Origin: a virus | Lineage: Duplodnaviria; Caudoviricetes | Virus record (IMG/VR): IMGVR_UViG_3300030095_006840 | Location: 39,159-103,158 of that record | Strand: one strand, 5' to 3' | Length of the DNA stretch: 64,000 nucleotides | Shown: positions 1 to 24,592 of the stretch, one piece after another | Position numbering within the stretch: position 1 is the stretch's first letter | How the letters are laid out: each line of letters begins with the position of its first letter | Notes under the pieces: generated by a model | Database searches by the model: none | What the model saw: the letters and a program-made list of their open reading frames with translations, nothing else | What the model was told of the DNA's origin: nothing | Translations under genes and position numbers: made by a program

Positions 1-2
1 AA

Positions 3-1361
3 GGATCAATCCGAGATCGTATACAGACAGAAAAAAAATTAAGCTCCCTACTAGAAGACTATAAAGGACGCAAATGTCAGGTCTACTTACTGCACGGAGA
101 TATGTCGGAAAGTGAAATAACATCCCTCTATCAACATCCAAAAGTTAAAGCATTTGTCAGCTTAACTCACGGTGAAGGTTTCGGTTTGCCGTTATATGAA
201 GCAGCATATAATGGTCTTCCGATTCTTGCTCCTGATTGGGGTGGTCATATTGATTTCTTGTATATGAAAACAAAAGATAAAAAAGGTAAGATTAAAAATA
301 AACCGATGTTTTCAACAGTTTCCTATGATATTAAGCCAGTTCAAGAAGAGGCTGTGTGGGACGGAATCATTCAAAAAGATTCTATGTGGTGCTTTCCCAA
401 AGAATGGCATTATAAAAAGACCCTAAAAACTGTTATTAAAAACTATAACACTTTAAAATCACAAGCTAAGAAACTTCAAAAATACTTAATTAGCGAATAT
501 GGTGGTGAAACACAATACAAGAAGATGGCAGAATCTGTTTTAGGTGAAACCATTACAACTATTGATGCGTCAACACTACCTAAAGTATCTATTATCACCT
601 CTGTTTATGATGGTGATGAGTATATTGAGCAATTTCTAGAAAATATCACATCTCAAACTATCTTTAAAGATAAATGTGAGTTGCTGCTTATTGATGCAAA
701 TTCCCCAGGTAATGAGGAAAAGGTTATTCAAAAGTATATCAAAAAGTTCCCAGACAACATTATCTATAAAAAACTTGATGAAGATCCTGGTATTTATGGA
801 GTTTGGAACATTGGTGTAGAACTGGCGACAGGAGAATACTTGACAAATGCTAATTTAGATGATCGTAAGAGTGGTGATTCTCTAGAGAGACATGCAGCAG
901 CACTTATGATGGCGGAAGATGTTGATTTGGTATACTCTGATATGTTGATTACCGAATTACCAAACGATACTTGGAACAATTCTTCCAAACCACGTCAAAA
1001 ATATAATATGGCAGAATTTTCTTTTGATAATTTATTAAGAGGAAATATGCCACATGCGGCCCCTATGTGGCGCAAATCAATGCATGACAAGTATGGAACT
1101 TTTGACGCCTCTTATAAATCAGCAGGCGACTGGGAAATGTGGTTGCGTTCAGCATCACAAGGGTCACAATTTAAAAAAATAAATGTTGTTACAAATCTTT
1201 ATTATTTTAATCCCAAAGGTATTTCTACTAATCCTGAAAACTTTGCCTGGAAAAGAGAAGAGGAAAAATCTGTATTTAAAAAGTATAAGAAAATTCATTC
1301 TGAGTTGCAAAAATCACAAAAAGAAGAGCCCCTTCGTAATGCTGGTGGCTTAGTGTTATGA
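3..1361 (+). CDS. Glycosyltransferase fusion (GT4/GT-B C-terminal part + GT2/GT-A domain), 5'-truncated by window edge
   Basis: Frame is open from base 3 (…KCQVYLLHGDM). GT4 motif HGEGFGLPLYEAAYNGLPILAPDWGGH, then GT2 signature PKVSIITSVYD…LLIDANS…NANLDDR…SAGDWEMWLR. Confidence 0.85.
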   Translation, partial: GSIRDRIQTEKKLSSLLEDYKGRKCQVYLLHGDMSESEITSLYQHPKVKAFVSLTHGEGFGLPLYEAAYNGLPILAPDWGGHIDFLYMKTKDKKGKIKNKPMFSTVSYDIKPVQEEAVWDGIIQKDSMWCFPKEWHYKKTLKTVIKNYNTLKSQAKKLQKYLISEYGGETQYKKMAESVLGETITTIDASTLPKVSIITSVYDGDEYIEQFLENITSQTIFKDKCELLLIDANSPGNEEKVIQKYIKKFPDNIIYKKLDEDPGIYGVWNIGVELATGEYLTNANLDDRKSGDSLERHAAALMMAEDVDLVYSDMLITELPNDTWNNSSKPRQKYNMAEFSFDNLLRGNMPHAAPMWRKSMHDKYGTFDASYKSAGDWEMWLRSASQGSQFKKINVVTNLYYFNPKGISTNPENFAWKREEEKSVFKKYKKIHSELQKSQKEEPLRNAGGLVL

Positions 1362-2185
1362 TTTTACCCGTCGCTTCGGTTGTCACTGAAAAAACCCTGA
1401 AAGAGTTTGAACTTTTAAAGTATTCTATTGAACTTTTTCACGAGTGTGATTGGTCGATTTCATGCGACAAACATGTTTACGACAGACTGGATAAGATTGC
1501 AAACGTCACATGTTTGCAACTTATTGAAACAGATGATTGTGATCACAACATTCAGGATGCAATAAAACAACAAAATTGGATGAAAGTTATGATGACCAAG
1601 TTTGACGCTGTTGAGTTGCACCTAAATAAACACAAACATTGTTTATTTCTCGATTCGGACATGCTGTTTGTGGGTCCGATTCAAGAAGAGTTTTTAGAGC
1701 TTTTTTTAAATTCAAATGTAGATGCAACTATCTCCCAGCATATGACAAATAATTGGCCAGTTGAAGCAAAGCACGGTCTTTTTAACGCTGGCATGTTTCA
1801 CATTCGGAGTAAAGATTTTTTAAACAGTTGGAAAGCTTTATCCAAAGACTATAAAAAGTATAATTTTTACTTTGAACAACAACCATTAGAATTTGTTCAG
1901 AGAAATTTCGTGTCGGTAAATTTTCCTATTAACTACAATATTGGTTGGTGGAGGTTTAACACCTCACAAACCCGTTCAAGGTTAAACAGTTTACACCTCA
2001 AAGATGATAAGGTTTACTTTGGAAATCGCCCAGCCGTTAATTTCCATGTTCATACTGTTAGGGAGTTAGAATATGAAAATTTTGGACAATTTTTGGTAGA
2101 CAAAGTAATGGAAATGTTTAAAAACTCCCAAAACAAAGATTATGAGTTGATAAGTAAAAAATATCAGGAGTTGAAAGGTGGATAA
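1358..2185 (+). CDS. Putative glycosyltransferase (GT-A, GT8/GT77-like)
   Basis: KFDAV…CLFLDSDMLF (DxD), FNAGMF, EQQPL, NYNIG motifs. ATGA overlap with the previous gene. Confidence 0.65.
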   Translation: MILPVASVVTEKTLKEFELLKYSIELFHECDWSISCDKHVYDRLDKIANVTCLQLIETDDCDHNIQDAIKQQNWMKVMMTKFDAVELHLNKHKHCLFLDSDMLFVGPIQEEFLELFLNSNVDATISQHMTNNWPVEAKHGLFNAGMFHIRSKDFLNSWKALSKDYKKYNFYFEQQPLEFVQRNFVSVNFPINYNIGWWRFNTSQTRSRLNSLHLKDDKVYFGNRPAVNFHVHTVRELEYENFGQFLVDKVMEMFKNSQNKDYELISKKYQELKGG

Positions 2186-3098
2186 TTGGGCACTAATAAC
2201 AACATACAAAATCGTTGATCCTCCTGAAACTCATTTTAGATTTATGGAGACATTCGTAAATTTTTATGAAAAAAAATGGAATGTAACCAAAACCATCTTA
2301 TTGGTGGGTATAGCAACAGAAGTTGTTACTGATATGGGTGCAAATAAAATCCTTTCTCGGGTTTATGATATGAACGAGGGTAAGGTTAGTGGCCCCTATC
2401 GTATAGGGGTTGTAAATTGTCCCGATTTCTGCAAAAATCTGACCTACTATGAAGGTTTAAAAACAGATATACTTTTTTATGATACAAATTTTTCCACTTC
2501 ACACGACGAATGGAATCAGATTAAAGACGTGTTATTTCAAGTTTGTGACAACGTACTGGATCCTCGATATAATAAGGTGATCAATATCGACAATGATGAG
2601 TTTTTATGTATGCCCTCGTGGAAGAAACCTGTCGAGAGGATGGGATTTCATTTTTTAGAATTTGTTCCTCCCAAAATTGAAGAGGAATTTTCATGGGATA
2701 AAGATATGACTTGGTGCGAGAAAGGTTGGTATTACACTGGAGCTTCTCGTGGAAAAAATAAAGTATCACATGGAATTTGTAAAAAATACAAGTTTGACAG
2801 ATATAACGGGGCAATGGGAGTTTCCTGTATCCATACTGGACAGACGGAAACATCCCCAGCATGTATGAATTTTGACCCCAAAAATATTCACAAAGATAAT
2901 ATATGCTTTCATCTTGGAGTTTTAGACTACGAACATTACTACAAAGGTAAAGCAACTAATCATGATGGAAATCAAATGGGTGAAAAACACGAAGAAGCTT
3001 TGAAATCCGCGAAAGATAATTATATCAATTTTTACTCAAATCCACATAGCAATTTCAAACTCATAACTGATAATTATATAAAAAAGTATAAAATATAA
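2178..3098 (+). CDS. Putative glycosyltransferase (GT-A-like)
   Basis: VINIDNDEFL DxDE motif and C-terminal CFHLG; located in the glycan cluster. Confidence 0.45.
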   Translation: MDNWALITTYKIVDPPETHFRFMETFVNFYEKKWNVTKTILLVGIATEVVTDMGANKILSRVYDMNEGKVSGPYRIGVVNCPDFCKNLTYYEGLKTDILFYDTNFSTSHDEWNQIKDVLFQVCDNVLDPRYNKVINIDNDEFLCMPSWKKPVERMGFHFLEFVPPKIEEEFSWDKDMTWCEKGWYYTGASRGKNKVSHGICKKYKFDRYNGAMGVSCIHTGQTETSPACMNFDPKNIHKDNICFHLGVLDYEHYYKGKATNHDGNQMGEKHEEALKSAKDNYINFYSNPHSNFKLITDNYIKKYKI

Positions 3099-3109
3099 AA
3101 GGAGAAAGT

Positions 3110-3724
3110 ATGGAATTTTTAGGAACCGATTATGGCGGCTGGCTATTGAATTTAGATTTGGTCCCACAAAACTCAACAATTATATCAGCAGGTATTGGTG
3201 AAGATATAAGTTTCGATCTTGAACTCATCCGGCGCAAAAACTGTCAAGTTGTTGGTGTAGATCCAACATTAAAAAGCCATAAATTTATTGAAGCACAATC
3301 CGATTTAGTCAATTTTAGTTTGTTAAAAAAAGCACTCGATAAGAATGAAGATGATGTTGTTTTTATGTATGAGAATACTAATCCCAATTACGTTTCAGAG
3401 TCTATATTGCCAACCCATCATTCAGTAGGAAAAAATTATTATTGTGCAGAAACAATAACCTTACCAGAAATCTTTAAACAATATGAAAACATTTCAGTAG
3501 TAAAGATGGACATCGAAGGTTCGGAGTATGATGTTTTAGAAAACTTAATTTTTATACCAGATTCTGTGAAACAAATGTGCATAGAATTTCATCATTTTTG
3601 CACCGAATATGATTTGGAAGATTCTCAAAAAATCCTTGAACATCTTAAAAATCTTGGATTTAATCAAATTTATAGCAATAAGCCAAACTCGATTGAGGAA
3701 GTAACACTGGTGAGGAATAGATGA
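3110..3724 (+). CDS. FkbM-family SAM methyltransferase
   Basis: LGTDYGGW, ISAGIGEDISFD, GVDPT, VKMDIEGSEY, QMCIEFH. AGGAG RBS upstream. Confidence 0.85.
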   Translation: MEFLGTDYGGWLLNLDLVPQNSTIISAGIGEDISFDLELIRRKNCQVVGVDPTLKSHKFIEAQSDLVNFSLLKKALDKNEDDVVFMYENTNPNYVSESILPTHHSVGKNYYCAETITLPEIFKQYENISVVKMDIEGSEYDVLENLIFIPDSVKQMCIEFHHFCTEYDLEDSQKILEHLKNLGFNQIYSNKPNSIEEVTLVRNR

Positions 3725-4560
3725 ACGTATTCTTTTTTCATTCTGGAAACCAGGCATATTTAGAAACTGCTGTAAAACACGCATCTTATAAAAATAATGT
3801 TATTCTAATTGGGGATAAAACCAATTCTCATCTAGGAAATATACCCAAAGTTCAACACATTGAATTAGATAATTGTCGGAATGATGTAGACAGATTTTTG
3901 TCGGCATATAAACACTTACATACAGGTGGGCAAAAATTTGAAGAATGGTGTTTTATTAGGTGGTTTGCAGTAAGAAATGTGGCGAAACAATTGGGGTTGG
4001 AAAGTGTTTTCTATAGCGATTCAGATAATTTAATCTATTCTGACTTAAATGAAGTTTATGAAGAGATCGACAAGCCTGATTTAGCCCTCTCAGTTCCGGC
4101 ATACCAACCACCATATCGCCATGCAGCAACTGGAGAGGTTTCATATTGGAGTTATGATAAATTAAATGAATTTTGTGATTTTATTTTAAACATTTATGAG
4201 GACGAATTTGACTTCTCTCGTCTTTTAGATAAGTGGTCTTATCATGTGGAAAATAAGTTGCCTGGGGGCATTTGTGACATGACTGTTCTGTGGCATTTTT
4301 GTAATGAAAATTCTCCTGAAATTATAACAAAAATCTTACCTAGTGACACCACTTTCGACCATAGTATCAATAATTCTTGCAACCATGAAAATGATGAATA
4401 TTTGATGGAAAATGGGCTTAAAAAAATCGAGTTTATTGATGGCGAGCCATATGGGTTTAATGTATTGCAACAAAAAAAAGTCCGTTTTCACAATTTGCAA
4501 TTCCAAGGAAACACAAAGCATTTGATGGATAATTATGTTAGATATAATAACAGTAAGTGA
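3721..4560 (+). CDS. Putative glycosyltransferase
   Basis: CFIRWF, FYSDSDNLIY (DxD), ICDMT, LQFQG motifs; cluster context. Confidence 0.5.
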   Translation: MNVFFFHSGNQAYLETAVKHASYKNNVILIGDKTNSHLGNIPKVQHIELDNCRNDVDRFLSAYKHLHTGGQKFEEWCFIRWFAVRNVAKQLGLESVFYSDSDNLIYSDLNEVYEEIDKPDLALSVPAYQPPYRHAATGEVSYWSYDKLNEFCDFILNIYEDEFDFSRLLDKWSYHVENKLPGGICDMTVLWHFCNENSPEIITKILPSDTTFDHSINNSCNHENDEYLMENGLKKIEFIDGEPYGFNVLQQKKVRFHNLQFQGNTKHLMDNYVRYNNSK

Positions 4561-5353
4561 TTTTAAGTCGGCATCAGATCCTGTTCGCACCGAGGAAACA
4601 ATTTACAAACAACTTGTTTCAAATAAAAATAAAATTGATTCAATATATTCTTATGCTGCGTTGCCTCTAGCAGAAACAATAAATTCCAGAGGACTTCCAG
4701 CCACGCAAAATTTAATTGACTCAATTTGTGAAAATTATAAAGATAAAAAACTTTTTTTTGTGTGTCAACATATCTTAGTTAGAGCTTTAAATTTTCACAA
4801 CCATCTAGTTTTCACCCCACATGCAACTATTTTAGATTCTTTTATCCCAATTCCCCATTATTCGTGCAATTATGATTTGAATTATGTTAAGCCGTGGGAA
4901 GAAAGAAAGTATTTATTTAGCTTTATGGGTTCGTTTAAAACGCACCAAACCAGATTGAGTGCTTGCGAAAAATTGAAAAATGAACCAGACTGTCTTTTCA
5001 TTGATACAGGTGATTGGCACTTTTATCATGACTCTTCTAAAAAAGCAGAAAACAAGAGAAAATATATTGAGCTTTTGGGCGACACAAAATATAGTCTTTG
5101 TCCGAGAGGCACTGGTCCGTCAACAATTAGAATGTGGGAATCAATGGCAATGGGGTCGTGTCCTGTAATTTTAAGTGATTATCTGAAGTATCCTTTAGAA
5201 TTTGATTTAGATTCCGACTTGTGGACTTCAGTGAAAGAAGATTTTACTCTTAGCGATATAAAAGGTGCATTGCCAGAAGACTATGACAACACAGAATATT
5301 TCAAATATTTTAGCAATGATAAACTTTATGAATCAATTTTGAGCGAAATATAG
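4535..5353 (+). CDS. Exostosin-family (GT47) glycosyltransferase
   Basis: RKYLFSFMGS…KYSLCPRGTGPSTIRMWESMAMGSCPVILSD…LP-type exostosin C-terminal motif. Confidence 0.8.
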   Translation: MLDIITVSDFKSASDPVRTEETIYKQLVSNKNKIDSIYSYAALPLAETINSRGLPATQNLIDSICENYKDKKLFFVCQHILVRALNFHNHLVFTPHATILDSFIPIPHYSCNYDLNYVKPWEERKYLFSFMGSFKTHQTRLSACEKLKNEPDCLFIDTGDWHFYHDSSKKAENKRKYIELLGDTKYSLCPRGTGPSTIRMWESMAMGSCPVILSDYLKYPLEFDLDSDLWTSVKEDFTLSDIKGALPEDYDNTEYFKYFSNDKLYESILSEI

Positions 5354-5384
5354 TGTATAATACATTTTATAACCAGGAAGAAAC

Positions 5385-6728
5385 ATGTGCGGAATCTTAT
5401 TAACTCATAGAAAAAATCAGAACGTAGAAGAGATCGTCAGCCCCCTCCTGACCAATCGCGGACCTGATAATACTTCTTTTGTTGAAAATGGTGATTACTT
5501 GTTTTTACACACACTACTTTCGATGACTGGAGATTTCGTAAAACAACCAATCACTCAAGATGACAACATTTGTATTTTCAATGGAGAGATCTATAATCAT
5601 AAAGATTTCGGAGATTACAGCTCAGATGTTTTTTCCATTTTAGAATCTTACAAACACAACAAGGCACGATTTGCCTCCCATCTGGACGGAGAGTTCGCGA
5701 TTGTATTAGCAGACTTTAAAGAGAAGAAGATAAATTTCTGTACTGATGTGTTTGGAATTAAACCTCTTTACTACTCTGTTGATGACGGACACCTATCAGC
5801 CTGTTCCTATAAAGAGATTTTATACTCTCTAGGTTGCCGAAACATCTTAAAAGCGGAACCTAATAAGGTTTTTACTTTTTGTTTAAATAAAAAACAAATA
5901 ATTAGTGAGCAATCAATACATGATTTTAATTTAAATCAATTTGAAACATCTTATGATAAGTGGTCAGAACTGTTCCTTGAGGCGATAAAAAAGAGGTTTT
6001 TAAACACTCAGCATGACATAATCTTACCATTAAGTAGTGGACATGATAGTGGTGGTATTTCTTGTGCATTGAATATGTTGGGTGTTGATCATTACACCTT
6101 TTCATTTTTAGGAAATGAACACAAACAAATCTTACAACAGCGTTTTGAATTTTCCAAAAATAAAGATAAAATATTTATAAAAGACAACCTTTCAGCGGAA
6201 GAAAAACAAAAAGCCTATAGTCTTCTATATGAGAATAGTGGCCACTTCACCTATGGAAAAGATATTTTAGCACAGAACCAATCACATGATGGGTTTAAAG
6301 ATGCTGGTGCTTTGGGACTAACTATATTATTGTGGAAAATGAAAGAAATGTTTCCCACAATTCGTATTTTAGCTTCCGGCCAGGGCGGGGATGAGGTCAT
6401 GTCTACAATCCAAGGATACGGTTTTGGGGATAAATTCAATCCACCAATATTTCCAGAAGAACTAAACACGGTTTTTCCTTGGAACAATTTTTATTATGGG
6501 GCGCAATCTTCATATTTATCGAAAGAGGAGAGTGTCACCGGAGCTTTTGGTATTGAAGGAAGATTTCCTTTTCTTGATGTTTCACTGGTTCAAAGTTTTT
6601 TAAATTTAGTTCCCGAGTTAAAAAATAAAGAGTTTAAAGCTCCTTTGACTAATTTTATGAAAGAGAATTCTTATCCTGTGTTGGTAGGAGAAAATCCTAA
6701 AGTTTATAAAAGAGGTTTTAATGTCTGA
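5385..6728 (+). CDS. asnB: Asparagine synthetase B-like glutamine amidotransferase (likely sugar amidation)
   Basis: N-terminal MCGI, RGPD, FNGEIYNH, DGEFA, DVFGIKPLYY, LSSGHDSG, SGQGGDE, EGRFPFLD. Confidence 0.85.
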   Translation: MCGILLTHRKNQNVEEIVSPLLTNRGPDNTSFVENGDYLFLHTLLSMTGDFVKQPITQDDNICIFNGEIYNHKDFGDYSSDVFSILESYKHNKARFASHLDGEFAIVLADFKEKKINFCTDVFGIKPLYYSVDDGHLSACSYKEILYSLGCRNILKAEPNKVFTFCLNKKQIISEQSIHDFNLNQFETSYDKWSELFLEAIKKRFLNTQHDIILPLSSGHDSGGISCALNMLGVDHYTFSFLGNEHKQILQQRFEFSKNKDKIFIKDNLSAEEKQKAYSLLYENSGHFTYGKDILAQNQSHDGFKDAGALGLTILLWKMKEMFPTIRILASGQGGDEVMSTIQGYGFGDKFNPPIFPEELNTVFPWNNFYYGAQSSYLSKEESVTGAFGIEGRFPFLDVSLVQSFLNLVPELKNKEFKAPLTNFMKENSYPVLVGENPKVYKRGFNV

Positions 6729-7395
6729 TAGTGTGATAATTTGTGGCTCTAAACCTTATGAGAATTTAAACTTGAACCATATCGTTGACACCTTTGATAC
6801 AATTGTTAGGAATAATATGCTCATAAATACGAATGGTTACGGAAAAAAACCATCGTCAATTCAGGTAATGAACTGTCATGTATATGAGAGATATAATAAT
6901 AAAATAACAGAAGATGAGTGGTGTAGTTTTTACAAAAACGAAAACATTGAGAAAGAACATGTTAAAAATTTCGTTAAATATATAAACCAAGATAATGGAA
7001 CCAATTATGTTTTTTATCAAGACAACAATAGTCTTTTAATGAATGCCATTTTAAACCACTACAAAATACCAGTACAAATGAAGCGTGTATTAAGATGTGG
7101 CATGGGACACGTGGCAGAAGCGTTGAAGTATCAACAAATACCCTTTTTGATTGGTTTTTCACTTCATGAAGAGGACAATATTAAACATTGTTACAGTAAT
7201 AAGGACGAGTTAGACTCCTATCATGATCGAGCCACTGAAGCAGAAATAATTATAGCACTTCATGAGCGAGGTCTGGTCGATGCGTCTTTTTGTGCATTGT
7301 TAGATCAAGAAAATATAAGTTTTGATAAATCACTCTTAAAACCAACTCAAAAGTCTGTTAAAATTCTAAATGAGTTGGGATATAGAATCGAATGA
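6721..7395 (+). CDS. GT29 sialyltransferase-like protein
   Basis: Sialylmotif L-like VIICGS…VDTFDTIVRNN, S-like RCGM…LIGFS, VS-like HDRATE (HxxxxE). Adjacent to KdsA and a CMP-sugar synthetase. Confidence 0.55.
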   Translation: MSDSVIICGSKPYENLNLNHIVDTFDTIVRNNMLINTNGYGKKPSSIQVMNCHVYERYNNKITEDEWCSFYKNENIEKEHVKNFVKYINQDNGTNYVFYQDNNSLLMNAILNHYKIPVQMKRVLRCGMGHVAEALKYQQIPFLIGFSLHEEDNIKHCYSNKDELDSYHDRATEAEIIIALHERGLVDASFCALLDQENISFDKSLLKPTQKSVKILNELGYRIE

Positions 7396-7730
7396 TAGTA
7401 TTTGTAGACATAGATGAAACAATATGCATAAATGATGATGGTGACAAGTCAAAAGCAAGAGATTATGAAAAAGCAAAACCAGTTGAAGCTAATATCCAGG
7501 CAGTCAACAAGCTTTACGATGAAGGTCATCACATAACGTATTGGACTGCTCGCGGCGCTAGAACTGGAATAGACTGGACTGAAGTAACCAGAAAACAATT
7601 AAATAAATGGGGTTGCAAATATAACGATTTAAAACTCGGTAAACCTCACTACGATATTTACATTGATGATAAATCAATCAATACGCGAAGATGGGAGTCG
7701 TTGGATAGATGCTTACCAGAACTGTTATAG
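7392..7730 (+). CDS. HAD-family phosphatase (capsule-biosynthesis type)
   Basis: VDIDETI, WTARG, GKPHYDIYIDDK. Confidence 0.8.
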   Translation: MIVFVDIDETICINDDGDKSKARDYEKAKPVEANIQAVNKLYDEGHHITYWTARGARTGIDWTEVTRKQLNKWGCKYNDLKLGKPHYDIYIDDKSINTRRWESLDRCLPELL

Positions 7731-8575
7731 GAATCCCAGCATCATTTGATGTTGATGGAAATTTAGAAACTAATTCCACTGAAAATTACTTAAAATATCT
7801 TGAAGACAAAGGTGTAAATACTGTTATGACAACAGAAGGCACTTCAACTTTTAACTTATTAACAGAAGACGAAATTCATAGACTAAATGAGAGTGTGGTT
7901 TCAAACTTTTCTGGATTTAAAATAATAGGAGTTCCTAACCTTTCTTTAAGAGGAGTGTTGGAATTTGTTAAGAAAGCAGAAGATTATCTTGATGACAAAT
8001 CCAATCTTATGTTTCTTTACCCTGAAAGGTTTTATAATGAGAAAATAATTGTAGACTTTTTCAAGGAAATAAGAAACCAAACAAACTCAAACATTTATGT
8101 TCATGGTAAAACAATCAGAAATGGAACTGGCGGAACATGGGATTATAATAGCTCAGTTATAAACGAATTGTTTGATAAAAATATCCTTAAAGGTATTAAA
8201 GAGGAGCACCCTAATTTGTTAAAATCTTATGATTTTGTGAGCAAATTAGACAAGAAAATTGATGTTATTGTAGCGGGTGGAAGTATGCGTAGATATGAAT
8301 ATTTGCGTTCTGCTGGTGCTAATAGTTTTCTCTCTGGTGTTGGAAATTTATTTCCAGAAATTGAGCAAGCATATATTGATGGCTACAAGGATGAAGCACT
8401 AGAAGTAGAGAAAAAATTGTTTACAGTTTTTATGAAAAACGGTTGGCACAAATCTCTTAGAAATGGTTTAAAATATTTAAACTTAACATGTTATAATAAT
8501 AGAAAACCTTGGCCCGAAACATCTGAAGAAGAAATGTTAGAAGTAGGGAATGTGATAGAGGAAATTAAAATATGA
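7709..8575 (+). CDS. DapA/NanA-family class I aldolase
   Basis: P…FDVDGNL, TTEGTSTF (variant of GTTGE), KGIKEE Schiff-base Lys, GANSFLSGVGNLFP. Confidence 0.7.
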   Translation: MLTRTVIGIPASFDVDGNLETNSTENYLKYLEDKGVNTVMTTEGTSTFNLLTEDEIHRLNESVVSNFSGFKIIGVPNLSLRGVLEFVKKAEDYLDDKSNLMFLYPERFYNEKIIVDFFKEIRNQTNSNIYVHGKTIRNGTGGTWDYNSSVINELFDKNILKGIKEEHPNLLKSYDFVSKLDKKIDVIVAGGSMRRYEYLRSAGANSFLSGVGNLFPEIEQAYIDGYKDEALEVEKKLFTVFMKNGWHKSLRNGLKYLNLTCYNNRKPWPETSEEEMLEVGNVIEEIKI

Positions 8576-9342
8576 AAAATAAAGTTTGGATACTTGGACC
8601 ATGTGCCATGGAAAGTGAAGAGATGTTTTTACAATCTGCCGAAAGCATCAACAATGTGATGTCAGATACAGACGAATGGTATATGAAAGCTAGTTTCGAC
8701 AAGGCTAATCGAACCTCTTTACATGGTGAAAGAGGAATTGGCTTAAAAGAAGCTGTCCGGATATGGGAAAAGACCAAAGCTAAGTTTCCTCAAATGAAAT
8801 TTATCACTGATGTTCATGAATGTTGGCAAGTAGAACAACTTTCAGAAGTTATTGATGTTATTCAGATTCCTGCGTTTCTCTGTCGCCAAACTGATTTAAT
8901 TGTAGAAAGTGCAAAACATTTCAACAAGATAAATATTAAAAAAGGTCAATGGCTGGGTCCGAACAATCTTGTTAAGTCTGTTGACAAAGTGAAAGAAACT
9001 AACCCCGATTGTGAAGCATGGATTTGTGATCGTGGAACCAACTTTGGTTACAATGATTTATTTGTAAACTTTGGAATTGTGGATGAGCTGAAGCAGCATT
9101 ATGATAGAGTTATTCTTGATTGTACACACTCAATTCAAAGATCAAGAGCAATTTATGGCACCCAAGGCGACAGAAAACTTGCCGAAAGATATTTTATTGC
9201 GGCAGATATTTTTAATTATGATGGTGTATTTGCCGAAGCCCACCCAAACCCTCCTGATGCTGTTTCCGATGGTGATTGCCAACTATTCTTATCCGAGTTA
9301 GAAGGTTTGGTTAAAAAAGCTAAGTCTGTTGGAGAGTTGTAG
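8572..9342 (+). CDS. kdsA: 3-deoxy-8-phosphooctulonate (Kdo8P) synthase
   Basis: GPCAMES, KASFDKANRTS, ITDVH, QIPAFLCRQTDL, NIKKGQ, RGTNFGY, DCTHSIQ, EAHPNP…SDG. Confidence 0.9.
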   Translation: MKNKVWILGPCAMESEEMFLQSAESINNVMSDTDEWYMKASFDKANRTSLHGERGIGLKEAVRIWEKTKAKFPQMKFITDVHECWQVEQLSEVIDVIQIPAFLCRQTDLIVESAKHFNKINIKKGQWLGPNNLVKSVDKVKETNPDCEAWICDRGTNFGYNDLFVNFGIVDELKQHYDRVILDCTHSIQRSRAIYGTQGDRKLAERYFIAADIFNYDGVFAEAHPNPPDAVSDGDCQLFLSELEGLVKKAKSVGEL

Positions 9343-10013
9343 TGAAAAAATTGGCTGTCATTCCGGCTCGCGGTGGTTCAACCAGGCTTAAAGATAAAAA
9401 TATCTATCCATTAGGTGGAAAACCCCTTATTCGATGGACAGCCGAAGCAGTTGTCAATTCTGGGTGTTTTGATAAGATTTTAATCTCAACAGATAGTGAT
9501 AAAATATTCGACACAATAAAAGACTTACCCGTCCAGCGCCATAATCGTCCCCAAGAACATGCAACCGTAAGGGCGACCGCTTTAAATGCGATGATTAATT
9601 TGATGGAATCACAAGAAGAGGAATATGATATTTTTTCATATTTTTTACCGACTTGCCCATTTGTTGATGCTTCTGACATTCGATTGGGGATCGAAAAGTT
9701 AGATAATAAAACAGACGCAGTTGTAAGTATGACAGAAATCCCCGAAACAATCCAGCTCGCTTGTGTTATGAAAAACGATATGGTTGTCCCTATTTTTGAC
9801 AATCTCACATCCGGCCTCACAAATAGCAAGTTTATACAGAAATACCACAAACCCTCTGGTGCATTTTATATGGGTTGGTGGGACAAAATTATACAAAACA
9901 AGAACTTTTTTAAAGGTGATGTAAAAGGTATTATAATTCCAAAAGAGCGTTCGGTGGATATTAACGATATTAGTGATATGGAATATGCTGAGAGCATTTT
10001 AAAAGGGGTGTAG
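9342..10013 (+). CDS. Acylneuraminate/ulosonate cytidylyltransferase (NeuA-type)
   Basis: IPARGGSTRLKDKNI, ISTDS, LPTCPF, GAFY, SVDINDISD. GTG start. Confidence 0.85.
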   Translation: MKKLAVIPARGGSTRLKDKNIYPLGGKPLIRWTAEAVVNSGCFDKILISTDSDKIFDTIKDLPVQRHNRPQEHATVRATALNAMINLMESQEEEYDIFSYFLPTCPFVDASDIRLGIEKLDNKTDAVVSMTEIPETIQLACVMKNDMVVPIFDNLTSGLTNSKFIQKYHKPSGAFYMGWWDKIIQNKNFFKGDVKGIIIPKERSVDINDISDMEYAESILKGV

Positions 10014-10094
10014 TGTCTACTTCCAAGAATCCTCAATCTCACCACCTTCTTCCTCAAAGGATCAGGGGTCAATCTGGGTTGAGACAATAAAGAT

Positions 10095-10760
10095 ATGATT
10101 TTTGAGAATAACATTAAAAAGGCTTGCGCCACCTTAAAAGAGGAAGGTCTTTATCTCTTTAAAACACCAGTTTATTCTGTAGGTGAACTTGAAGAAGTGA
10201 TTGAAATTCAAGAACAAAGTTTTAGACCGAATGACAACTCTTATGAATTTGGACGAGCTTCAAGAATCGGGTCAAGAGAAAAGTGGTTTAACACTCCGAT
10301 TTATTCCCTTTTTAATCACCCAGTTGTACATCATATAAGTGATGATTTTTACAGTTGCAAACCTTCTTTTAATGAAATTTTTTGCACTCATGATTATCAA
10401 TCTAACCGAGGTTTGGCAAGGAACGGGTATTTACATTTTGATAGAATACCAACATTAAAATTTTTTGTATATCTGACTGACTGTGATGAAACTTCTGGAC
10501 CTTTTCGATATGTTCCAAACAGTTATAAGCTAGGAAAAGAATTAAGAATCAAGGCCAACAATCAGACAAATCTTTATGAAAGTGTTCCCAACCGATTAGA
10601 GCTAGATTATCCTGAATTAGAATACAGTGCAGAGGATACAATCCCCCTTGTTGGACCGGCAGGGACCATGTTTGTGTTTCATAGTGATTTATTTCATATG
10701 GGTGGAATTATTTCGCCATCAAAATCACGTAGAGTAATGAGACTGCATTTGAGGTTATAA
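10095..10760 (+). CDS. PhyH-family 2OG-Fe(II) dioxygenase
   Basis: LHFD…KFFVYLTD…GPFRYVPNS…GTMFVFHSDLFHMG…R. Confidence 0.8.
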   Translation: MIFENNIKKACATLKEEGLYLFKTPVYSVGELEEVIEIQEQSFRPNDNSYEFGRASRIGSREKWFNTPIYSLFNHPVVHHISDDFYSCKPSFNEIFCTHDYQSNRGLARNGYLHFDRIPTLKFFVYLTDCDETSGPFRYVPNSYKLGKELRIKANNQTNLYESVPNRLELDYPELEYSAEDTIPLVGPAGTMFVFHSDLFHMGGIISPSKSRRVMRLHLRL

Positions 10761-14314: not shown

Positions 14315-14331
14315 AAAGGAACAAATATTTG

Positions 14332-14697
14332 ATGAGAAAAAATTTACCAAAAACTATTTTTTGTGATATTGATGGAACCCTCATAAAGCATGAGCCTCCC
14401 CATATGAGCTGCCAGGATGATTATTCCCCACAACTTTTAGAGGGTACTTTGGAAAAAATAAAAGAATGGGACCAAAAAGGGTATAGAATAATTTTAACAA
14501 CCGGTCGCCGTGAAAGCTCAAGGAAAATGACCGAAAAACACATCAATTCTTTAGGTATTATTTATGATTATTTGATTATGGGAATTGGTGGTGGTGATAG
14601 GGTAGTTATAAACGACAGAAAACCAGATTCTGAACGAGATACATGTTATGCCATTAATCTAACTCGTAATGTAGGGATAAAAGACGTAGACATCTAA
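14332..14697 (+). CDS. HAD-family phosphatase
   Basis: FCDIDGTL, LTTGR, RVVINDRKP. Confidence 0.8.
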   Translation: MRKNLPKTIFCDIDGTLIKHEPPHMSCQDDYSPQLLEGTLEKIKEWDQKGYRIILTTGRRESSRKMTEKHINSLGIIYDYLIMGIGGGDRVVINDRKPDSERDTCYAINLTRNVGIKDVDI

Positions 14698-15387: not shown

Positions 15388-15407
15388 CACTTAAAAGGGT
15401 GATAAAA

Positions 15408-15770
15408 ATGTTAAACGATAAATCTAGAGGTGAAGAACGACCTTGGGGAAGATACGATAATCTTTACGAAGATGACAACTGTAAGGTTAAAAAAATAACC
15501 ATTAAACCGCACCAAAACCCCTCATACCAGATGCATTTTAAAAGGAGTGAAGTGTGGGTTGTAATCTCTGGAACAGGTCAATTACGACTGAACGATGTTT
15601 ACACTGATCTCACCCCTGGTTCTGTGGCCAACATTCCTTTACAAGCCAAACATACAATTATCAATACTGGTGATGAAAACTTGGTCTTTATAGAGGTCCA
15701 AACCGGAACTTATTTTGGCGAAGATGACATTGTGAGATTAGAAGATAAATATGGCAGACAAGACCCATAA
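15408..15770 (+). CDS. Cupin, mannose-6-phosphate isomerase type II C-terminal-like
   Basis: ERPWG, VKKITIKP, SYQMHFKRSEVWVV, IEVQTGTYFGEDDIVRLEDKYGR. Confidence 0.85.
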   Translation: MLNDKSRGEERPWGRYDNLYEDDNCKVKKITIKPHQNPSYQMHFKRSEVWVVISGTGQLRLNDVYTDLTPGSVANIPLQAKHTIINTGDENLVFIEVQTGTYFGEDDIVRLEDKYGRQDP

Positions 15771-17310
15771 AGTTCTTGTAACAACAAGTGGCCTCGGCAG
15801 CCGATTAGGGAACTTAACAACATATACTAACAAATCTTTGGTAAGAGTGGGTGCAAAGCCAGCCATTTCGTATATTATAGAACAATACCCTGAAAATACC
15901 GAATTCGTGGTGACACTAGGTCACTTTGGAGAACACGTTCGTGGCCTACTGGAGCTTTTATACCCCTCTCGAAACATAGCTTATGTTGAAGTAGAAAAGT
16001 ATGCGGGAGAAGGGAGCAGCCTCGGTTGGTCAATGTTGTGCACCCAAGAACACTTACAGTGTCCATTTATTTTTCATACTTGTGATTCTATCTTGCAAAA
16101 CAATCCCCCACCTCCTGAAGAAAATTGGATTGGAGTCAGCAATGTCAAAGACTCATTTCAATATCGTACCGTCAAAGTTTTGAATAATCAGGTGGTTTCT
16201 TTTCAAGAAAAGGGTGAGATAAATTACGATTATGCTTATATAGGTGTTTGCGGAATAAAAGATTATAAACCTTTTTGGGATAATTTACAAAAAGTATATG
16301 ATTCAAACCCCAACAATTCATCCCTTTCAGATTGTCATGCGCTTCAGAAAATGATTACTAGTGGTATTAAGTTTGGGTTTGTTGAATGTGATTGGCATGA
16401 CATCGGAAACATAAACGACTTGCGCAAAACTAGAGAAAATATTGGTGAAGACATTTGCGTCCTAGATAAAGAGGAGGAAAATACATACATCTTTAATGAT
16501 TCGGTGGTAAAATTTTTTTATGACCCTGAAAAAGTCACGCAAAGAGTTTCACGAGCAAACCTACTTAACCCCTTAACTCCCAATATATTGGGATCTTGTG
16601 ATAATTTTTATCGCTATGAATTTGTTGAAGGAAAAACATTTTCCGAAAATACTAAGTTAAGTGTATTTAAGCAGTTTTTAGATTGGTCATCTTTACAACT
16701 ATGGAAAATGAATGGGGAAAACATTAGGGATTTGTGTGAAAAATTTTATTTTGACAAGACCGAGAGTCGAATTAATCAATTTCTTAATTCGTATGAAGAA
16801 TCTCATTTACCCATTAATGGGTTAGATTGTCCACCAGTTCTAGAGCAGGTTAAAAAAATAGATAAAGAGTGGATGTGTGATGGGCTTTCAAGTTACTTTC
16901 ACGGAGATTTTATATTAGACAATATAATTTGTGATGTAGATCAATTTAAATTAATTGATTGGAGACACAACTTTGGAGATAATGCACTAGAGTACGGCGA
17001 TCTATATTATGACCTATCTAAATTAAACCATAGCTTAAGCTTTAATCATAGTCTTGTGAATCAAGAATGTTATACCATTGATTTTAGTGATGATAATATC
17101 ACTGTAGATATTTTGAGAAAAAATACGCTAGTGGAATTCCAGAGAGCATTTGAAAATTTTGTTAGACAGAATGGTTGGGATCTGAAAAAGATTAAAGTTT
17201 TAACATCTTTAATTTGGATAAACATGAGTCCGTTGCATGAATATCCATTAAATATTTTTCTCTTTTATTTTGGAAAATACAATTTATGGAGAAGTATTAA
17301 TGAACAATAA
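15751..17310 (+). CDS. Nucleotidyltransferase fused to an APH/choline-kinase-like phosphotransferase
   Basis: N-term TTSGLGSRL…NKSL, WHDIGN. C-term FHGDFILDNI, LIDWR, GDLYYDLSK. Confidence 0.75.
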   Translation: MADKTHKVLVTTSGLGSRLGNLTTYTNKSLVRVGAKPAISYIIEQYPENTEFVVTLGHFGEHVRGLLELLYPSRNIAYVEVEKYAGEGSSLGWSMLCTQEHLQCPFIFHTCDSILQNNPPPPEENWIGVSNVKDSFQYRTVKVLNNQVVSFQEKGEINYDYAYIGVCGIKDYKPFWDNLQKVYDSNPNNSSLSDCHALQKMITSGIKFGFVECDWHDIGNINDLRKTRENIGEDICVLDKEEENTYIFNDSVVKFFYDPEKVTQRVSRANLLNPLTPNILGSCDNFYRYEFVEGKTFSENTKLSVFKQFLDWSSLQLWKMNGENIRDLCEKFYFDKTESRINQFLNSYEESHLPINGLDCPPVLEQVKKIDKEWMCDGLSSYFHGDFILDNIICDVDQFKLIDWRHNFGDNALEYGDLYYDLSKLNHSLSFNHSLVNQECYTIDFSDDNITVDILRKNTLVEFQRAFENFVRQNGWDLKKIKVLTSLIWINMSPLHEYPLNIFLFYFGKYNLWRSINEQ

Positions 17311-24591: not shown

Positions 24592-24592
24592 T

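What the first reader, a model, noticed from the sequence alone, without database searches (positions are those of the whole stretch)
6721..10013. Self-contained ulosonic-acid module: GT29-like transferase + HAD + NanA/DapA aldolase + KdsA + NeuA-type CMP synthetase
Seen: five overlapping genes covering synthesis (KdsA), dephosphorylation (HAD), CMP activation and transfer. The cytidylyltransferase has NeuA-type motifs (GGSTRLKDKN, PTCP, SVDIN), not KdsB-type (GKPL, QGDEP), yet it is paired with KdsA rather than NeuB. Established: GT29 is the animal sialyltransferase family, and plant GT29s have been linked to Kdo/Dha transfer; bacterial LPS Kdo transfer uses WaaA (GT30). Inference: the phage caps a glycan with Kdo or a non-canonical ulosonic acid via a eukaryote-like transferase. 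The aldolase, with an altered GTTGE motif, may make or modify the precursor.
Basis: partly seen in the sequence, partly recalled or inferred. Interest (0 to 1): 0.7.

Follow-up and report, generated by a model that had tools for sequence, protein, structure and literature searches.

The report
Phage Kdo-type sugar cassette with mini-GT29
An uncultured marine T4-like phage carries a tightly packed gene set that most likely makes an eight-carbon acidic sugar of the Kdo type, activates it with CMP and attaches it with a stripped-down, soluble relative of animal sialyltransferases; one conserved enzyme of the set (an aldolase) has no known role in such a pathway.

Summary
Five overlapping genes at 6721-10013 encode a 224-aa GT29-type transferase, a 112-aa HAD phosphatase, a DHDPS/NAL-family aldolase, a metal-type KDO8P synthase and a NeuA/PseF-like (not KdsB-like) cytidylyltransferase.

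The key test was passed. The transferase has no Pfam hit itself, but its model (pLDDT 95) matches animal GT29 sialyltransferases best in two independent fold searches. Its family is homologous (hhalign 97%) to small phage proteins scoring 95 bits on PF00777, and the H-x4-E catalytic motif is invariant.

Gene neighbourhoods from ten independent metagenomic clusters support one pathway:
- The transferase family always travels with a CMP synthetase plus KdsA, NeuB or an HMGL-like synthase.
- KdsA-linked CMP synthetases form their own clade (62-87% identity, versus 21-28% to NeuB-linked ones).
- The aldolase directly precedes KdsA in all seven other KdsA-type clusters sampled, as in the window.
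- A PhyH dioxygenase (10095-10760) belongs to the unit and is found fused to the transferase elsewhere.

The cassette is not self-contained: no KdsD is present. "Eukaryote-like" is also misleading, because bacterial and viral GT29 are known. The exact sugar, the aldolase's role and the acceptor remain unknown.

This scan has noted the same module in at least 13 other genomes. I found no paper describing it.

The parts
5385..6728 (+). AsnB-like glutamine amidotransferase (447 aa) with N-terminal MCGI (Cys2 nucleophile). Its end overlaps the transferase start by 8 nt. It is a possible amidating or tailoring enzyme; membership of the unit is tentative.
   Evidence: Pfam GATase_7 E 1e-14 and Asn_synthase E 3e-6; N-terminus; overlap. 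Not conserved in the other cassettes sampled.
6721..7395 (+). Minimal soluble GT29-type (sialyltransferase-fold) glycosyltransferase, 224 aa, P0001. It is the predicted CMP-ulosonic-acid transferase. Motif L lies at residues 5-53, motif S at R125-G127 through G145-F146-S147, motif III-like at H156-x-Y158, and motif VS at H168-x4-E173.
   Evidence: Model pLDDT 95; GT29 structures top both fold searches; hhalign 97.3%, E 2e-11 to phage proteins scoring 95 bits on PF00777; 23 of 116 family members weakly hit PF00777 and one passes its cutoff; H168 invariant and E173 in 112 of 116; no membrane span.
7392..7730 (+). Capless mini-HAD phosphatase, 112 aa, P0002. It is the predicted sugar-acid phosphate (Kdo-8-P) phosphatase.
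   Evidence: PF25109 E 7e-5; TIGR01689 capsule phosphatase weak; phrog_1238 E 4e-29. DIDET (DxDxT), WTAR and GKP..DDK motifs are conserved in the homologs of L001 and L012.
7709..8575 (+). DHDPS/NAL-family class I (Schiff-base) aldolase-like enzyme, 288 aa, P0003. Its role in the pathway is unknown, and it is a constant upstream partner of KdsA.
   Evidence: PF00701 38.8 bits. Model pLDDT 95, TM about 0.8 to both DHDPS and N-acetylneuraminate lyase. K164 is invariant and aligns with the Schiff-base Lys; GTTGE is altered; R194 and R195 are invariant. It lies directly upstream of KdsA in the seven other KdsA-type clusters sampled.
8572..9342 (+). Metal-dependent 3-deoxy-8-phosphooctulonate (KDO8P) synthase, KdsA, 256 aa, P0004.
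   Evidence: NF003543 256 bits (cutoff 242), while DAHP synthase models score 61 bits or less. It scores 200 bits to A. aeolicus KDO8PS 1fwn, residues 5-251 on 5-251, with the GPC(11)A, KANR(T)S, FLCRQTDL, THS(I)Q and E.HP...SD blocks kept.
9342..10013 (+). NeuA/PseF-like CMP-ulosonic-acid synthetase, 223 aa, GTG start, P0005. It belongs to a clade found only in KdsA-type cassettes.
   Evidence: PF02348 95.6 bits; PseF model 124 bits full length versus KdsB 53 bits or less, N-terminal only. It shares 62-87% identity with six other KdsA-linked enzymes and 21-28% with NeuB- or HMGL-linked ones. It is the only CTP_transf_3 gene on the contig.
10095..10760 (+). PhyH-family Fe(II)/2-oxoglutarate dioxygenase, 221 aa. 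It is the predicted tailoring hydroxylase of the sugar or of the sugar once transferred.
   Evidence: PF05721 E 6e-11. A PhyH gene lies beside the transferase or CMP synthetase in L006/7, L008, L013, L015 and L016, at 37-40% identity in the KdsA-type ones. Eight of ten long family members are transferase::PhyH fusions. The window PhyH aligns to the fused domain at E 4e-6.
4535..5353 (+). GT47 (exostosin-type) glycosyltransferase, 272 aa. It is a recurrent neighbour and probably builds the acceptor glycan.
   Evidence: PF03016 E 7e-15. GT47 is also found in the clusters of L006/7, L012, L015 and L016.

Best explanation
The region is a translationally coupled phage cassette for a CMP-activated octulosonic acid of the Kdo type. 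The proposed steps are as follows. (1) KdsA, a metal-dependent KDO8P synthase, condenses PEP with host-supplied arabinose-5-phosphate to give Kdo-8-P. (2) The mini-HAD removes the phosphate. (3) A dedicated NeuA/PseF-like cytidylyltransferase makes the CMP-sugar. (4) A minimal, soluble GT29-type transferase uses His168 of its H-x4-E motif as catalytic base, as in sialyltransferases, to transfer the sugar with inversion onto an acceptor. That acceptor is probably built by the neighbouring soluble GT2, GT4, GT47 and GT77-like enzymes. The DHDPS/NAL-family enzyme and the PhyH dioxygenase are integral parts. They most likely make, epimerise or hydroxylate the sugar, so the final residue may be a Kdo derivative rather than Kdo itself. 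What is shown: the family or fold of every protein, the gene coupling, the conserved co-occurrence, and the KdsA-specific CMP-synthetase clade. What is inferred: all substrates, the order of steps, the acceptor, and the biological purpose (virion decoration or host-surface remodelling).
For: Enzyme identities. GT29 fold and homology. The H-x4-E motif with a catalytic His is defined in PMC8433944, and H168 and E173 are conserved in the family. Cassette conservation: transferase, HAD, aldolase, KdsA and CMP synthetase occur in the same order in L001. Aldolase, KdsA and CMP synthetase occur with a GT29-type transferase in L008, L012, L013, L015 and L016. The transferase family also sits next to NeuB plus a CMP synthetase (L003-5, L015/16) or an HMGL-like synthase plus a CMP synthetase (L010/11). 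It therefore tracks CMP-ulosonic-acid supply in general. The syntenic cluster L006/7 keeps the same upstream glycosyltransferases and the transferase but swaps the KdsA set for a NeuB/NeuC set. The CMP synthetase clade is specific to KdsA cassettes, even where a NeuB-linked paralog lies in the same cluster. The contig has only one CMP synthetase, no NeuB and no other GT29. Precedent for GT29 using CMP-Kdo: plant RCKT1/MGP2 by genetics (PMC11288761), and a predicted GT29-GT107 poly-Kdo enzyme in the E. coli K6 capsule locus (PMC13171606).
Against: There is no biochemical evidence for any step. The activating enzyme is not KdsB-like, and I know of no NeuA-type enzyme shown to accept Kdo. The aldolase has no place in the canonical Kdo pathway, so a product other than Kdo is quite possible. 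P0001 itself fails PF00777 (no hit at E 0.1 or below). The HAD is absent from four of the seven other KdsA-type cassettes; three of those four carry DUF6356 after KdsA instead. KdsA misses the stricter TIGR01362 cutoff (250 versus 314 bits). No KdsD is found on the contig, which is only 57% complete. No acceptor is identified.
Confidence: 0.65

Rival explanations
1. The transferred sugar is made by the DHDPS/NAL-family aldolase from pyruvate plus an aldose (a Kdo-aldolase or NAL-like synthesis). KdsA only supplements it, or boosts the host Kdo pool for LPS. The two enzymes would then be parallel routes, not successive steps.
For: The Schiff-base Lys is invariant. The fold equals NAL, including NAL variants evolved into KDO aldolases (PMC6009289). 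Kdo aldolase activity (EC 4.1.2.23) is known (PMC12199768). Distant cassettes (L010, L011) have an aldolase-type HMGL-like synthase and no KdsA or NeuB.
Against: The aldolase was never seen without KdsA in the seven other KdsA-type clusters. KdsA is more conserved (69-77% identity) than the aldolase (45-61%). Aldolase equilibria favour cleavage. There is one CMP synthetase for both enzymes.
Confidence: 0.15
2. The KdsA homolog has shifted substrate specificity (another aldose phosphate), so the product is not an octulosonic acid but a 7- or 9-carbon ulosonic acid. This would explain the NeuA/PseF-type activator.
For: The activator is nearest to nonulosonic-acid enzymes. KdsA falls below the TIGR01362 cutoff. 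A mannose-6-P isomerase and GDP-mannose branch lies nearby.
Against: KdsA passes the NF003543 equivalog cutoff. It aligns without net indels to A. aeolicus KDO8PS, and the KANR(S/T)S A5P-binding block and all metal ligands are kept. Known 9-carbon synthases are NeuB-type, and the phages use NeuB when they make those sugars.
Confidence: 0.1
3. The cassette makes ordinary CMP-Kdo to feed the host's own LPS or capsule machinery (the 'lock-out' host-surface remodelling proposed for the related Tara virus). P0001 would act on a host lipid-linked or LPS-core acceptor rather than on a phage-built glycan or virion protein.
For: PMC5332604 interprets KdsA and NeuA of the related 179-kb aceBA virus in this way. 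Cyanophage S-SCSM2R carries KdsA with KdsB (PMC12801897).
Against: The cluster encodes at least six further soluble glycosyltransferases but no flippase, polymerase, initiating transferase or WaaA. It sits at a fixed locus next to the structural genes, with a variable sugar cassette. That pattern fits a phage-specified glycan better. This rival concerns the target, not the chemistry, and is not excluded.
Confidence: 0.25

Closest known systems
Canonical bacterial Kdo pathway (KdsD, KdsA, KdsC, KdsB, then WaaA GT30 or KpsC/KpsS GT107 or WbbB GT99)
   Same: KdsA here is a bona fide metal-type KDO8P synthase. It is followed by a HAD phosphatase step, CMP activation and transfer, which is the same overall logic.
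   Different: There is no KdsD. The phosphatase is a 112-aa capless HAD, not the KdsC/YrbI type. The activator is NeuA/PseF-like, not KdsB. The transferase is GT29-type, not GT30, GT99 or GT107. An extra DHDPS-family enzyme and a PhyH dioxygenase are integral parts.
Eukaryotic GT29 sialyltransferases (ST6GalNAc2, ST3Gal1, ST8SiaIII, ST6Gal1) and plant GT29 RCKT1/MGP2, the putative RG-II CMP-Kdo transferase
   Same: They share the GT-A variant fold, the order of sialylmotifs L, S, III and VS, and an invariant H-x4-E. RCKT1 gives genetic precedent for a GT29 using CMP-Kdo (PMC11288761).
   Different: P0001 is 224 aa and starts directly at motif L. It has no stem, membrane anchor or conserved disulfide cysteines. 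Motif III is degenerate (H-x-Y). It has a C-terminal extension of about 40 aa with invariant H181, D187 and C191. It does not reach the PF00777 threshold.
Bacterial and viral small GT29 proteins (23 bacterial sequences in PMC5811610; about 222-aa phage proteins in L015/L016; GT29-labelled giant-virus and Caudovirales proteins in BFVD)
   Same: They have the same size and soluble architecture. In L015 and L016 they occupy the same cassette position next to PhyH, a CMP synthetase and KdsA.
   Different: P0001 shares only 24% identity with them. It belongs to a separate subfamily (169 clusters at 50% identity) that Pfam does not recognise and that has no member in 50,697 deposited phage genomes.
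Bacterial CMP-nonulosonic acid systems (NeuB/NeuA, PseI/PseF, LegI/LegF with GT42 Cst or Maf transferases)
   Same: The CMP synthetase is closest to this group. Sister phage clusters use exactly such NeuB sets with the same transferase family.
   Different: The condensing enzyme here is KdsA (C5 + C3), not NeuB (C6 + C3). The KdsA-linked synthetases are a separate clade, 21-28% identical to the NeuB-linked ones.
KdoO, the Fe(II)/2-oxoglutarate Kdo 3-hydroxylase that converts Kdo to Ko after transfer (from my own knowledge of the literature, not checked here)
   Same: It is a 2-oxoglutarate dioxygenase functionally tied to a Kdo transfer step. The PhyH fusion to the transferase suggests a comparable post-transfer hydroxylation.
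   Different: It belongs to a different dioxygenase family than PhyH. No activity is known for the phage protein.

Membership tests
GT29 (CAZy) / Pfam PF00777 Glyco_transf_29 | GT-A variant sialyltransferase fold | tested here: met
   The model has pLDDT 95.1. The Foldseek top 14 are all GT29 (best E 7e-6). The VIA-align wide top 4 are all GT29: Z 9.8 (161 aa, 3.5 A), 9.4, 8.8 and 7.8. GT42 Cst-I scores 7.6 and Maf 6.3.
GT29 (CAZy) / Pfam PF00777 Glyco_transf_29 | Sialylmotif VS, H-x4-E with catalytic His (PMC8433944) | tested here: met
   P0001 has H168-DRAT-E173. H168 is present in 116 of 116 family members and E173 in 112 of 116. It aligns with HDFLKE of a protein scoring 95 bits on PF00777.
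GT29 (CAZy) / Pfam PF00777 Glyco_transf_29 | Sialylmotifs L and S | tested here: met
   IICGS...VDTFDTIVRNN...GKK...NCH aligns with SVVGSS...IDSHEEVMRFN...GKK...NNH. RCG...LIGFS aligns with SCG...CYGFN. The PF00777 C-terminal part maps to P0001 residues 120-184. The disulfide cysteines are not conserved, as reported for bacterial GT29 (PMC5811610).
GT29 (CAZy) / Pfam PF00777 Glyco_transf_29 | Sialylmotif III, (H/y)-Y-(Y/W/F/h)-(D/E/q/g) | tested here: inconclusive
   P0001 has H156-C-Y158-S. In the family, H occurs in 53 of 116 and Y in 76 of 116. The L015 GT29 has the canonical HYFE at the aligned place.
GT29 (CAZy) / Pfam PF00777 Glyco_transf_29 | Score above Pfam's gathering cutoff (23 bits) | tested here: not met
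   P0001 has no PF00777 hit at E 0.1 or below, and PF00777 finds nothing on the whole contig at E 1 or below. However, 23 of 116 family members give weak hits, P0121 scores 24.1 bits, and hhalign of the family against 95-bit phage GT29 gives 97.3% probability, E 2e-11. It is therefore a divergent relative, not a member by the Pfam criterion.
GT29 (CAZy) / Pfam PF00777 Glyco_transf_29 | Inverting transfer from a CMP-activated ulosonic acid | not testable with these tools
   The only evidence is association: a CMP synthetase is encoded within 7 kb of the transferase in all loci sampled except L006/7, where the fetched stretch ends. A CMP-activating gene was seen with nine of the ten independent clusters.
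KDO8P synthase (KdsA) | NCBIfam equivalog score | tested here: met
   NF003543 scores 256.1 bits against a cutoff of 242. The older TIGR01362 scores 250 bits, below its cutoff of 314. DAHP synthase models score 61 bits or less.
KDO8P synthase (KdsA) | Metal ligands (Cys, His, Glu, Asp) and the KANRS A5P/PEP-binding blocks | tested here: met
   Alignment to A. aeolicus 1fwn covers residues 5-251 on 5-251. The blocks GPCA, SFDKANR(T)S, IQIPAFLCRQTDL, D.THS.Q and E.HP.P..A.SD are kept. The residue roles come from my own knowledge of the A. aeolicus structures.
KdsB (CMP-Kdo synthetase) | Equivalog score and full-length match | tested here: not met
   TIGR00466 scores 28.8 bits (cutoff 155.2) over residues 5-65 only. 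The best KdsB subfamily model scores 53 bits (cutoff 193). PDB KdsB chains match only the N-terminal 60-80 residues.
NeuA / PseF CMP-nonulosonic acid synthetases | Equivalog score | tested here: not met
   TIGR03584 PseF scores 124.5 bits over the full length (4-218), below its cutoff of 205.7. The PF02348 superfamily is met at 95.6 bits. The protein is nearest to this group but forms a separate clade.
DHDPS / N-acetylneuraminate lyase family (PF00701) | TIM-barrel fold with Schiff-base lysine | tested here: met
   PF00701 scores 38.8 bits (cutoff 22.1). TM is about 0.8 to DHDPS and NAL structures. K164 is invariant on the GIKE lysine.
DHDPS / N-acetylneuraminate lyase family (PF00701) | GTTGE / GSTGE pyruvate-binding motif and dapA or NAL equivalog score | tested here: not met
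   The motif reads TT(A/E)GTS. dapA TIGR00674 scores 37 bits (cutoff 206). No NAL model matched. The protein is therefore neither DapA nor NanA proper.
KdsC (Kdo-8-P phosphatase, HAD IIIA) | Family model match | tested here: not met
   No KdsC model hit. Only a generic HAD (PF25109 at 23.4 bits, below its cutoff) and TIGR01689 at 24.6 bits (cutoff 162) matched. The HAD catalytic motifs are intact.

The most novel reading that the evidence does not exclude
The conserved core of aldolase, KdsA, dedicated NeuA-like synthetase, PhyH and mini-GT29 makes and transfers a so far undescribed Kdo-derived sugar, not Kdo itself. One possibility is a C4-epimerised or hydroxylated (Ko-like) octulosonic acid. 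It would be made by a route in which a DHDPS/NAL-family enzyme acts on a KdsA product. Marine phages would use interchangeable KdsA, NeuB and HMGL cassettes at one locus to vary an acidic cap on a phage-specified glycan.
Probability: 0.35. Interest if true: 0.8.

Novelty: new variant of a known kind. Interest (0 to 1): 0.62.

Why it matters
No GT29 enzyme has yet been shown in vitro to transfer Kdo. The plant candidate RCKT1 rests on genetics because the protein could not be expressed and CMP-Kdo is unstable (PMC11288761). A 224-aa soluble phage GT29 with no disulfides is encoded next to its own sugar-synthesis and CMP-activation enzymes. That offers a tractable system for testing what GT29 enzymes outside animals do.

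The constant pairing of KdsA with a DHDPS/NAL-family enzyme and a KdsA-specific NeuA-like clade points to an undescribed branch of ulosonic-acid metabolism. This branch is abundant in marine phages: the aldolase family alone has more than 176 clusters at 90% identity.

The cassette swapping at a fixed locus beside the tail genes suggests that acidic sugar caps are a variable trait in phage-host interaction. Whether they sit on the virion or on the infected cell is unknown.

Tried and rejected
- Sequence searches of P0001, and of its 12- and 116-sequence profiles, against PDB gave nothing meaningful.
- Megablast of the region and tblastn of P0001 against 50,697 phage records gave no match.
- A profile search of the 5.8-billion-protein set with A2 did not reach proteins annotated as PF00777. 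The link to canonical GT29 came only from cassettes found through the aldolase.
- KdsB identity for P0005 was rejected.
- GT42 (Cst) and Maf-type transferases were considered for P0001. They score lower (Z 7.6 and 6.3) than GT29, and the sialylmotifs fit GT29. Thiamin pyrophosphokinase, HPPK and SteA matches at Z 6-7 are shared Rossmann-like cores without the motifs.
- Folding the aldolase did not separate DHDPS from NAL: TM is about 0.8 to both.
- The scan of 185,579 species genomes with aldolase peptide patterns returned one locus only, an uncultured Haliscomenobacter MAG with the aldolase-KdsA-CMP synthetase trio. No organism with known glycan chemistry could be tied to the cassette. That scan uses exact peptide patterns, so it is not evidence of rarity.
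- No KdsD (SIS), WaaA, NeuB or second CMP synthetase was found on the contig, which is 57% complete.
- Host assignment was not attempted beyond noting that the published relative also has no assigned host.

Full report
**Setting.** The window is the 3' 64 kb of a 103-kb IMG/VR virus contig that CheckV estimates at 57% complete. Its baseplate wedge protein is only about 33% identical to those of Flavobacterium phage immuto and Microcystis phage Mel-JY01, so it is a distant T4-like myovirus. The contig also carries malate synthase and isocitrate lyase. It therefore resembles the 179-kb aceBA Tara virus TARA_ERS478052_N000008. [quoted passage not shown]

**Observation.** Successive genes overlap by 4, 22, 4 and 1 nt, and the preceding AsnB-like gene overlaps the first by 8 nt.
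- The HAD, DHDPS-family, KdsA and cytidylyltransferase assignments hold.
- KdsA scores 256 bits on NF003543 (cutoff 242) and 200 bits on the metal-dependent A. aeolicus enzyme. It aligns position for position, with the Cys11, KANR(T)S, His, Glu and Asp blocks intact.
- The cytidylyltransferase matches PseF and NeuA over its full length. It matches KdsB only over the N-terminal nucleotide-binding part.
GKPL is also present, so only the absence of QGDEP distinguishes it from KdsB.

**The transferase.** P0001 has no hit in Pfam, NCBIfam, PHROGs or PDB by sequence.
- An exhaustive search found 169 relatives at the 50% cluster level, all from metagenomes and none in deposited phage genomes.
- With a 116-sequence alignment, AlphaFold gave a model with pLDDT 95.1 and pTM 0.92.
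- In Foldseek against PDB, the 14 best hits are all animal GT29 sialyltransferases: ST8SiaIII, then ST6GalNAc2. Campylobacter CstII (GT42) comes next.
- In an independent all-against-representatives VIA-align search, the four best chains are ST6GalNAc2 (Z 9.8), ST3Gal1 (9.4), ST8SiaIII (8.8) and ST6Gal1 (7.8). Cst-I follows at 7.6.
- PF00777 is the only Pfam family that recurs among the members (23 of 116). One member passes its gathering cutoff, and that match maps to P0001 residues 120-184.
- The decisive link came from loci found through the aldolase, not the transferase. In two Tara contigs the equivalent cassette ends in proteins of 222 and 223 aa that score 95 bits on PF00777.
- P0001 aligns to the L015 protein at E 1e-7, and the family profile aligns at 97.3% probability, E 2e-11.
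- The alignment places the motifs as follows: motif L (IICGS...VDTFDTIVRNN) on SVVGSS...IDSHEEVMRFN; motif S (RCG...LIGFS) on SCG...CYGFN; motif III (HCYS) on HYFE; motif VS (HDRATE) on HDFLKE.
- H-x4-E with a catalytic His is the published definition of motif VS (PMC8433944). H168 is invariant and E173 is present in 112 of 116.

P0001 is thus a divergent, minimal GT29-type enzyme. It starts at motif L, has no membrane anchor and no conserved disulfide cysteines. Both features were reported for bacterial GT29 (PMC5811610). It does not meet Pfam's threshold itself, so I file it as a GT29 relative rather than a member by that criterion.

**Context as functional evidence.** I read ten independent clusters that carry a GT29-type transferase, plus one bacterial locus that carries only the aldolase-KdsA-CMP synthetase trio.
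- KdsA-type cassettes: L001/2, L008, L012, L013, L015, L016 and a Haliscomenobacter MAG (L018), besides the window. In every one of them the DHDPS-like gene lies immediately upstream of KdsA, with a CTP_transf_3 gene nearby. A GT29-type transferase is in the same cluster in all but the MAG, where I did not look for one.
- NeuB-type cassettes: L003-5, L006/7 and the second sets in L015/16. These pair the same transferase family with NeuB; a CMP synthetase is also encoded within the fetched stretch in all but L006/7.
- Distant members at about 25% identity sit next to a CMP synthetase and an HMGL-like aldolase or synthase. In L011 these are fused with a HAD in one 711-aa protein.
- L006/7 share the window's upstream gene order (GT4, GT4-GT2, GT77-like, FkbM methyltransferase, unknown, GT47, transferase). 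They replace the KdsA set with NeuB, a NeuC-type epimerase, a radical-SAM protein and HisH/HisF-like genes. The cassette is thus exchangeable at a fixed locus.
- That locus begins after PIN-PhoH and a PD-(D/E)XK nuclease, both here and in L001.

**The activating enzyme tracks the synthase.** The seven KdsA-linked CMP synthetases share 62-87% identity. They share only 21-28% with NeuB- or HMGL-linked ones, including the paralog in the same cluster of L015 (28%). The transferases are about equally distant (36-40%) whichever synthase accompanies them. The contig has no other CMP synthetase, no NeuB and no canonical GT29.

**Additional members of the unit.** A PhyH-family dioxygenase follows the cassette here (10095-10760). 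One lies next to the transferase or the CMP synthetase in L006/7, L008, L013, L015 and L016. Eight of ten family members of about 425 aa are transferase::PhyH fusions. The window's PhyH aligns to the fused domain at E 4e-6. This suggests hydroxylation of the sugar at or after transfer. That is analogous to Kdo-to-Ko conversion by KdoO, an analogy drawn from my own knowledge and not tested here. The AsnB-like amidotransferase upstream is intact (Cys2) and translationally coupled, but it is not conserved elsewhere.

**The aldolase.** P0003 belongs to a large, mainly viral marine family: more than 176 clusters at 90% identity, and an ESM Atlas cluster that is 90% viruses. Its model (pLDDT 95) superposes equally on DHDPS and N-acetylneuraminate lyase, at TM about 0.8. 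K164 is invariant and aligns with the Schiff-base lysine. The GTTGE motif is replaced by TT(A/E)GTS, and an invariant GGSMRR with two arginines follows strand 7.

A Schiff-base enzyme acting on a 2-keto-3-deoxy acid could do several things. It could make Kdo from pyruvate and arabinose (Kdo aldolase activity is known, and the NAL scaffold converts to a KDO aldolase with few mutations; PMC12199768, PMC6009289). It could epimerise C4 by retro-aldol and aldol steps. It could dehydrate, as KdgD does. I cannot decide among these. This is the main unexplained part, and it is the reason the product may not be plain Kdo.

**Acceptor and purpose.** The glycan cluster runs for about 22 kb, from contig position about 37,140 to window position 20,198. 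It encodes the following:
- GT4 and a GT4-GT2 fusion
- a GT77-like PF03407 protein
- GT47
- methyltransferases
- two PhyH proteins
- an aminotransferase
- a second mini-HAD
- a GDP-mannose / GDP-deoxyhexose branch

None of the 24 proteins in the window part has a predicted membrane span. There is no flippase, polymerase, initiating transferase or WaaA. The chemistry is therefore cytoplasmic and soluble. Whether the product ends up on virion proteins or on a host carrier is open.

**Comparison with what is known.** The logic is that of the Kdo pathway, but three of the five canonical enzyme families are replaced: KdsC, KdsB and WaaA. Two extra families are added. GT29 use of CMP-Kdo has genetic precedent in plants (RCKT1; PMC11288761) and a prediction in the E. 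coli K6 capsule locus (PMC13171606). Bacterial and viral GT29 sequences are known (PMC5811610). Searches of the paper library that combined GT29 with phage or bacteriophage, or KdsA with phage, returned no description of a phage GT29 linked to KdsA, of the aldolase-KdsA pair, or of the transferase::PhyH fusion. Notes from this scan report the same module in at least 13 other genomes, with the same reading. My tests agree with them and add three things: the CMP-synthetase clade analysis, the PhyH fusion, and the finding that this window's transferase belongs to a subfamily Pfam does not recognise.

**Verdict.** This is a real, conserved and abundant phage cassette. It is a new variant of known ulosonic-acid systems. 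Enzyme families are assigned with confidence, and the chemistry is inferred. The identity of the sugar, the aldolase's role and the acceptor are unresolved.

Noticed in passing
metagenomic proteins P0037, P0074, P0075, P0115, P0119, P0132, P0141, P0168 (about 420-430 aa): These are natural fusions of the P0001-type transferase domain (N-terminal) with a PhyH Fe(II)/2-oxoglutarate dioxygenase (C-terminal). This is a Rosetta-stone link between the two genes, which are separate in the window.
   Followed up: partly
L010:7001-10478 and L011:1761-4625: Distant members of the transferase family (about 25% identity) sit next to a CTP_transf_3 gene and an HMGL-like (pyruvate-aldolase / 2-oxoacid-synthase type) gene. 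In L011 a HAD, CTP_transf_3 and HMGL-like domain are fused in one 711-aa protein. This may be a third kind of CMP-activated acid-sugar synthase, besides KdsA and NeuB.
   Followed up: no
L006:1-15369 and L007 versus window 1-10760: This syntenic phage cluster has the same upstream glycosyltransferases and transferase. The KdsA set is replaced by PhyH, NeuB, a methyltransferase, a B12/radical-SAM protein, HisF/HisH-like proteins and a NeuC-type epimerase. It shows cassette exchange of the acidic sugar at one locus.
   Followed up: partly
L015:1-12563 and L016:1-12545: Large Tara phage contigs carry two complete ulosonic-acid sets in one cluster. One is NeuB-type and one KdsA-type, each with its own Pfam-positive GT29 of about 222 aa and its own CMP synthetase. 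A pyruvyl transferase, a Capsule_synth (KpsS/KpsC-like) gene and sulfotransferase-like genes are also present.
   Followed up: partly
window 1-20198 plus contig 37,137-39,158 (L014:10138-13520): This is a glycan cluster of about 22 kb and about 26 genes with no predicted membrane protein. It combines GT77-like (PF03407), GT47 (exostosin/RXYLT1) and GT29-type enzymes with Kdo synthesis. That repertoire is reminiscent of plant pectin (RG-II) enzymes. It also has two PhyH proteins, an FkbM and other methyltransferases, a class I/II aminotransferase and GDP-mannose 4,6-dehydratase with an epimerase/reductase.
   Followed up: partly
window 15751-17310: This 519-aa protein has weak nucleotidyltransferase and APH-type kinase matches, and sits next to a mannose-6-P isomerase-type cupin (15399-15770). 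It may be a fused sugar kinase / nucleotidyltransferase feeding the GDP-sugar branch.
   Followed up: no
window 14329-14697: A second mini-HAD phosphatase (122 aa) lies in the same cluster. Which sugar phosphate each HAD serves is unknown.
   Followed up: no
window 24551-32620 and 36417-45941: Two giant ORFs (2689 and 3174 aa) flank the baseplate wedge genes directly downstream of the glycan cluster. They are presumably fibre or baseplate-associated proteins and possible glycosylation targets.
   Followed up: no
contig G000:C1:19087-21426 (upstream of the window): Malate synthase (359 bits) and isocitrate lyase (190 and 173 bits) lie adjacent to each other. The contig is an aceBA-carrying T4-like marine virus like TARA_ERS478052_N000008 (PMC5332604).
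   Followed up: partly
L018:6944-9212 (Haliscomenobacter sp. MAG, JADJHZ010000016.1): The aldolase, KdsA and CTP_transf_3 trio also occurs in a Bacteroidota MAG at 33% identity, in a region of short, possibly degraded ORFs. The core is therefore not restricted to phages.
   Followed up: partly
L013:999-1358, L015:9635-9817, L016:9626-9805: A small DUF6356 protein (60-119 aa) follows KdsA in the cassettes that lack the mini-HAD. Its function is unknown.
   Followed up: no
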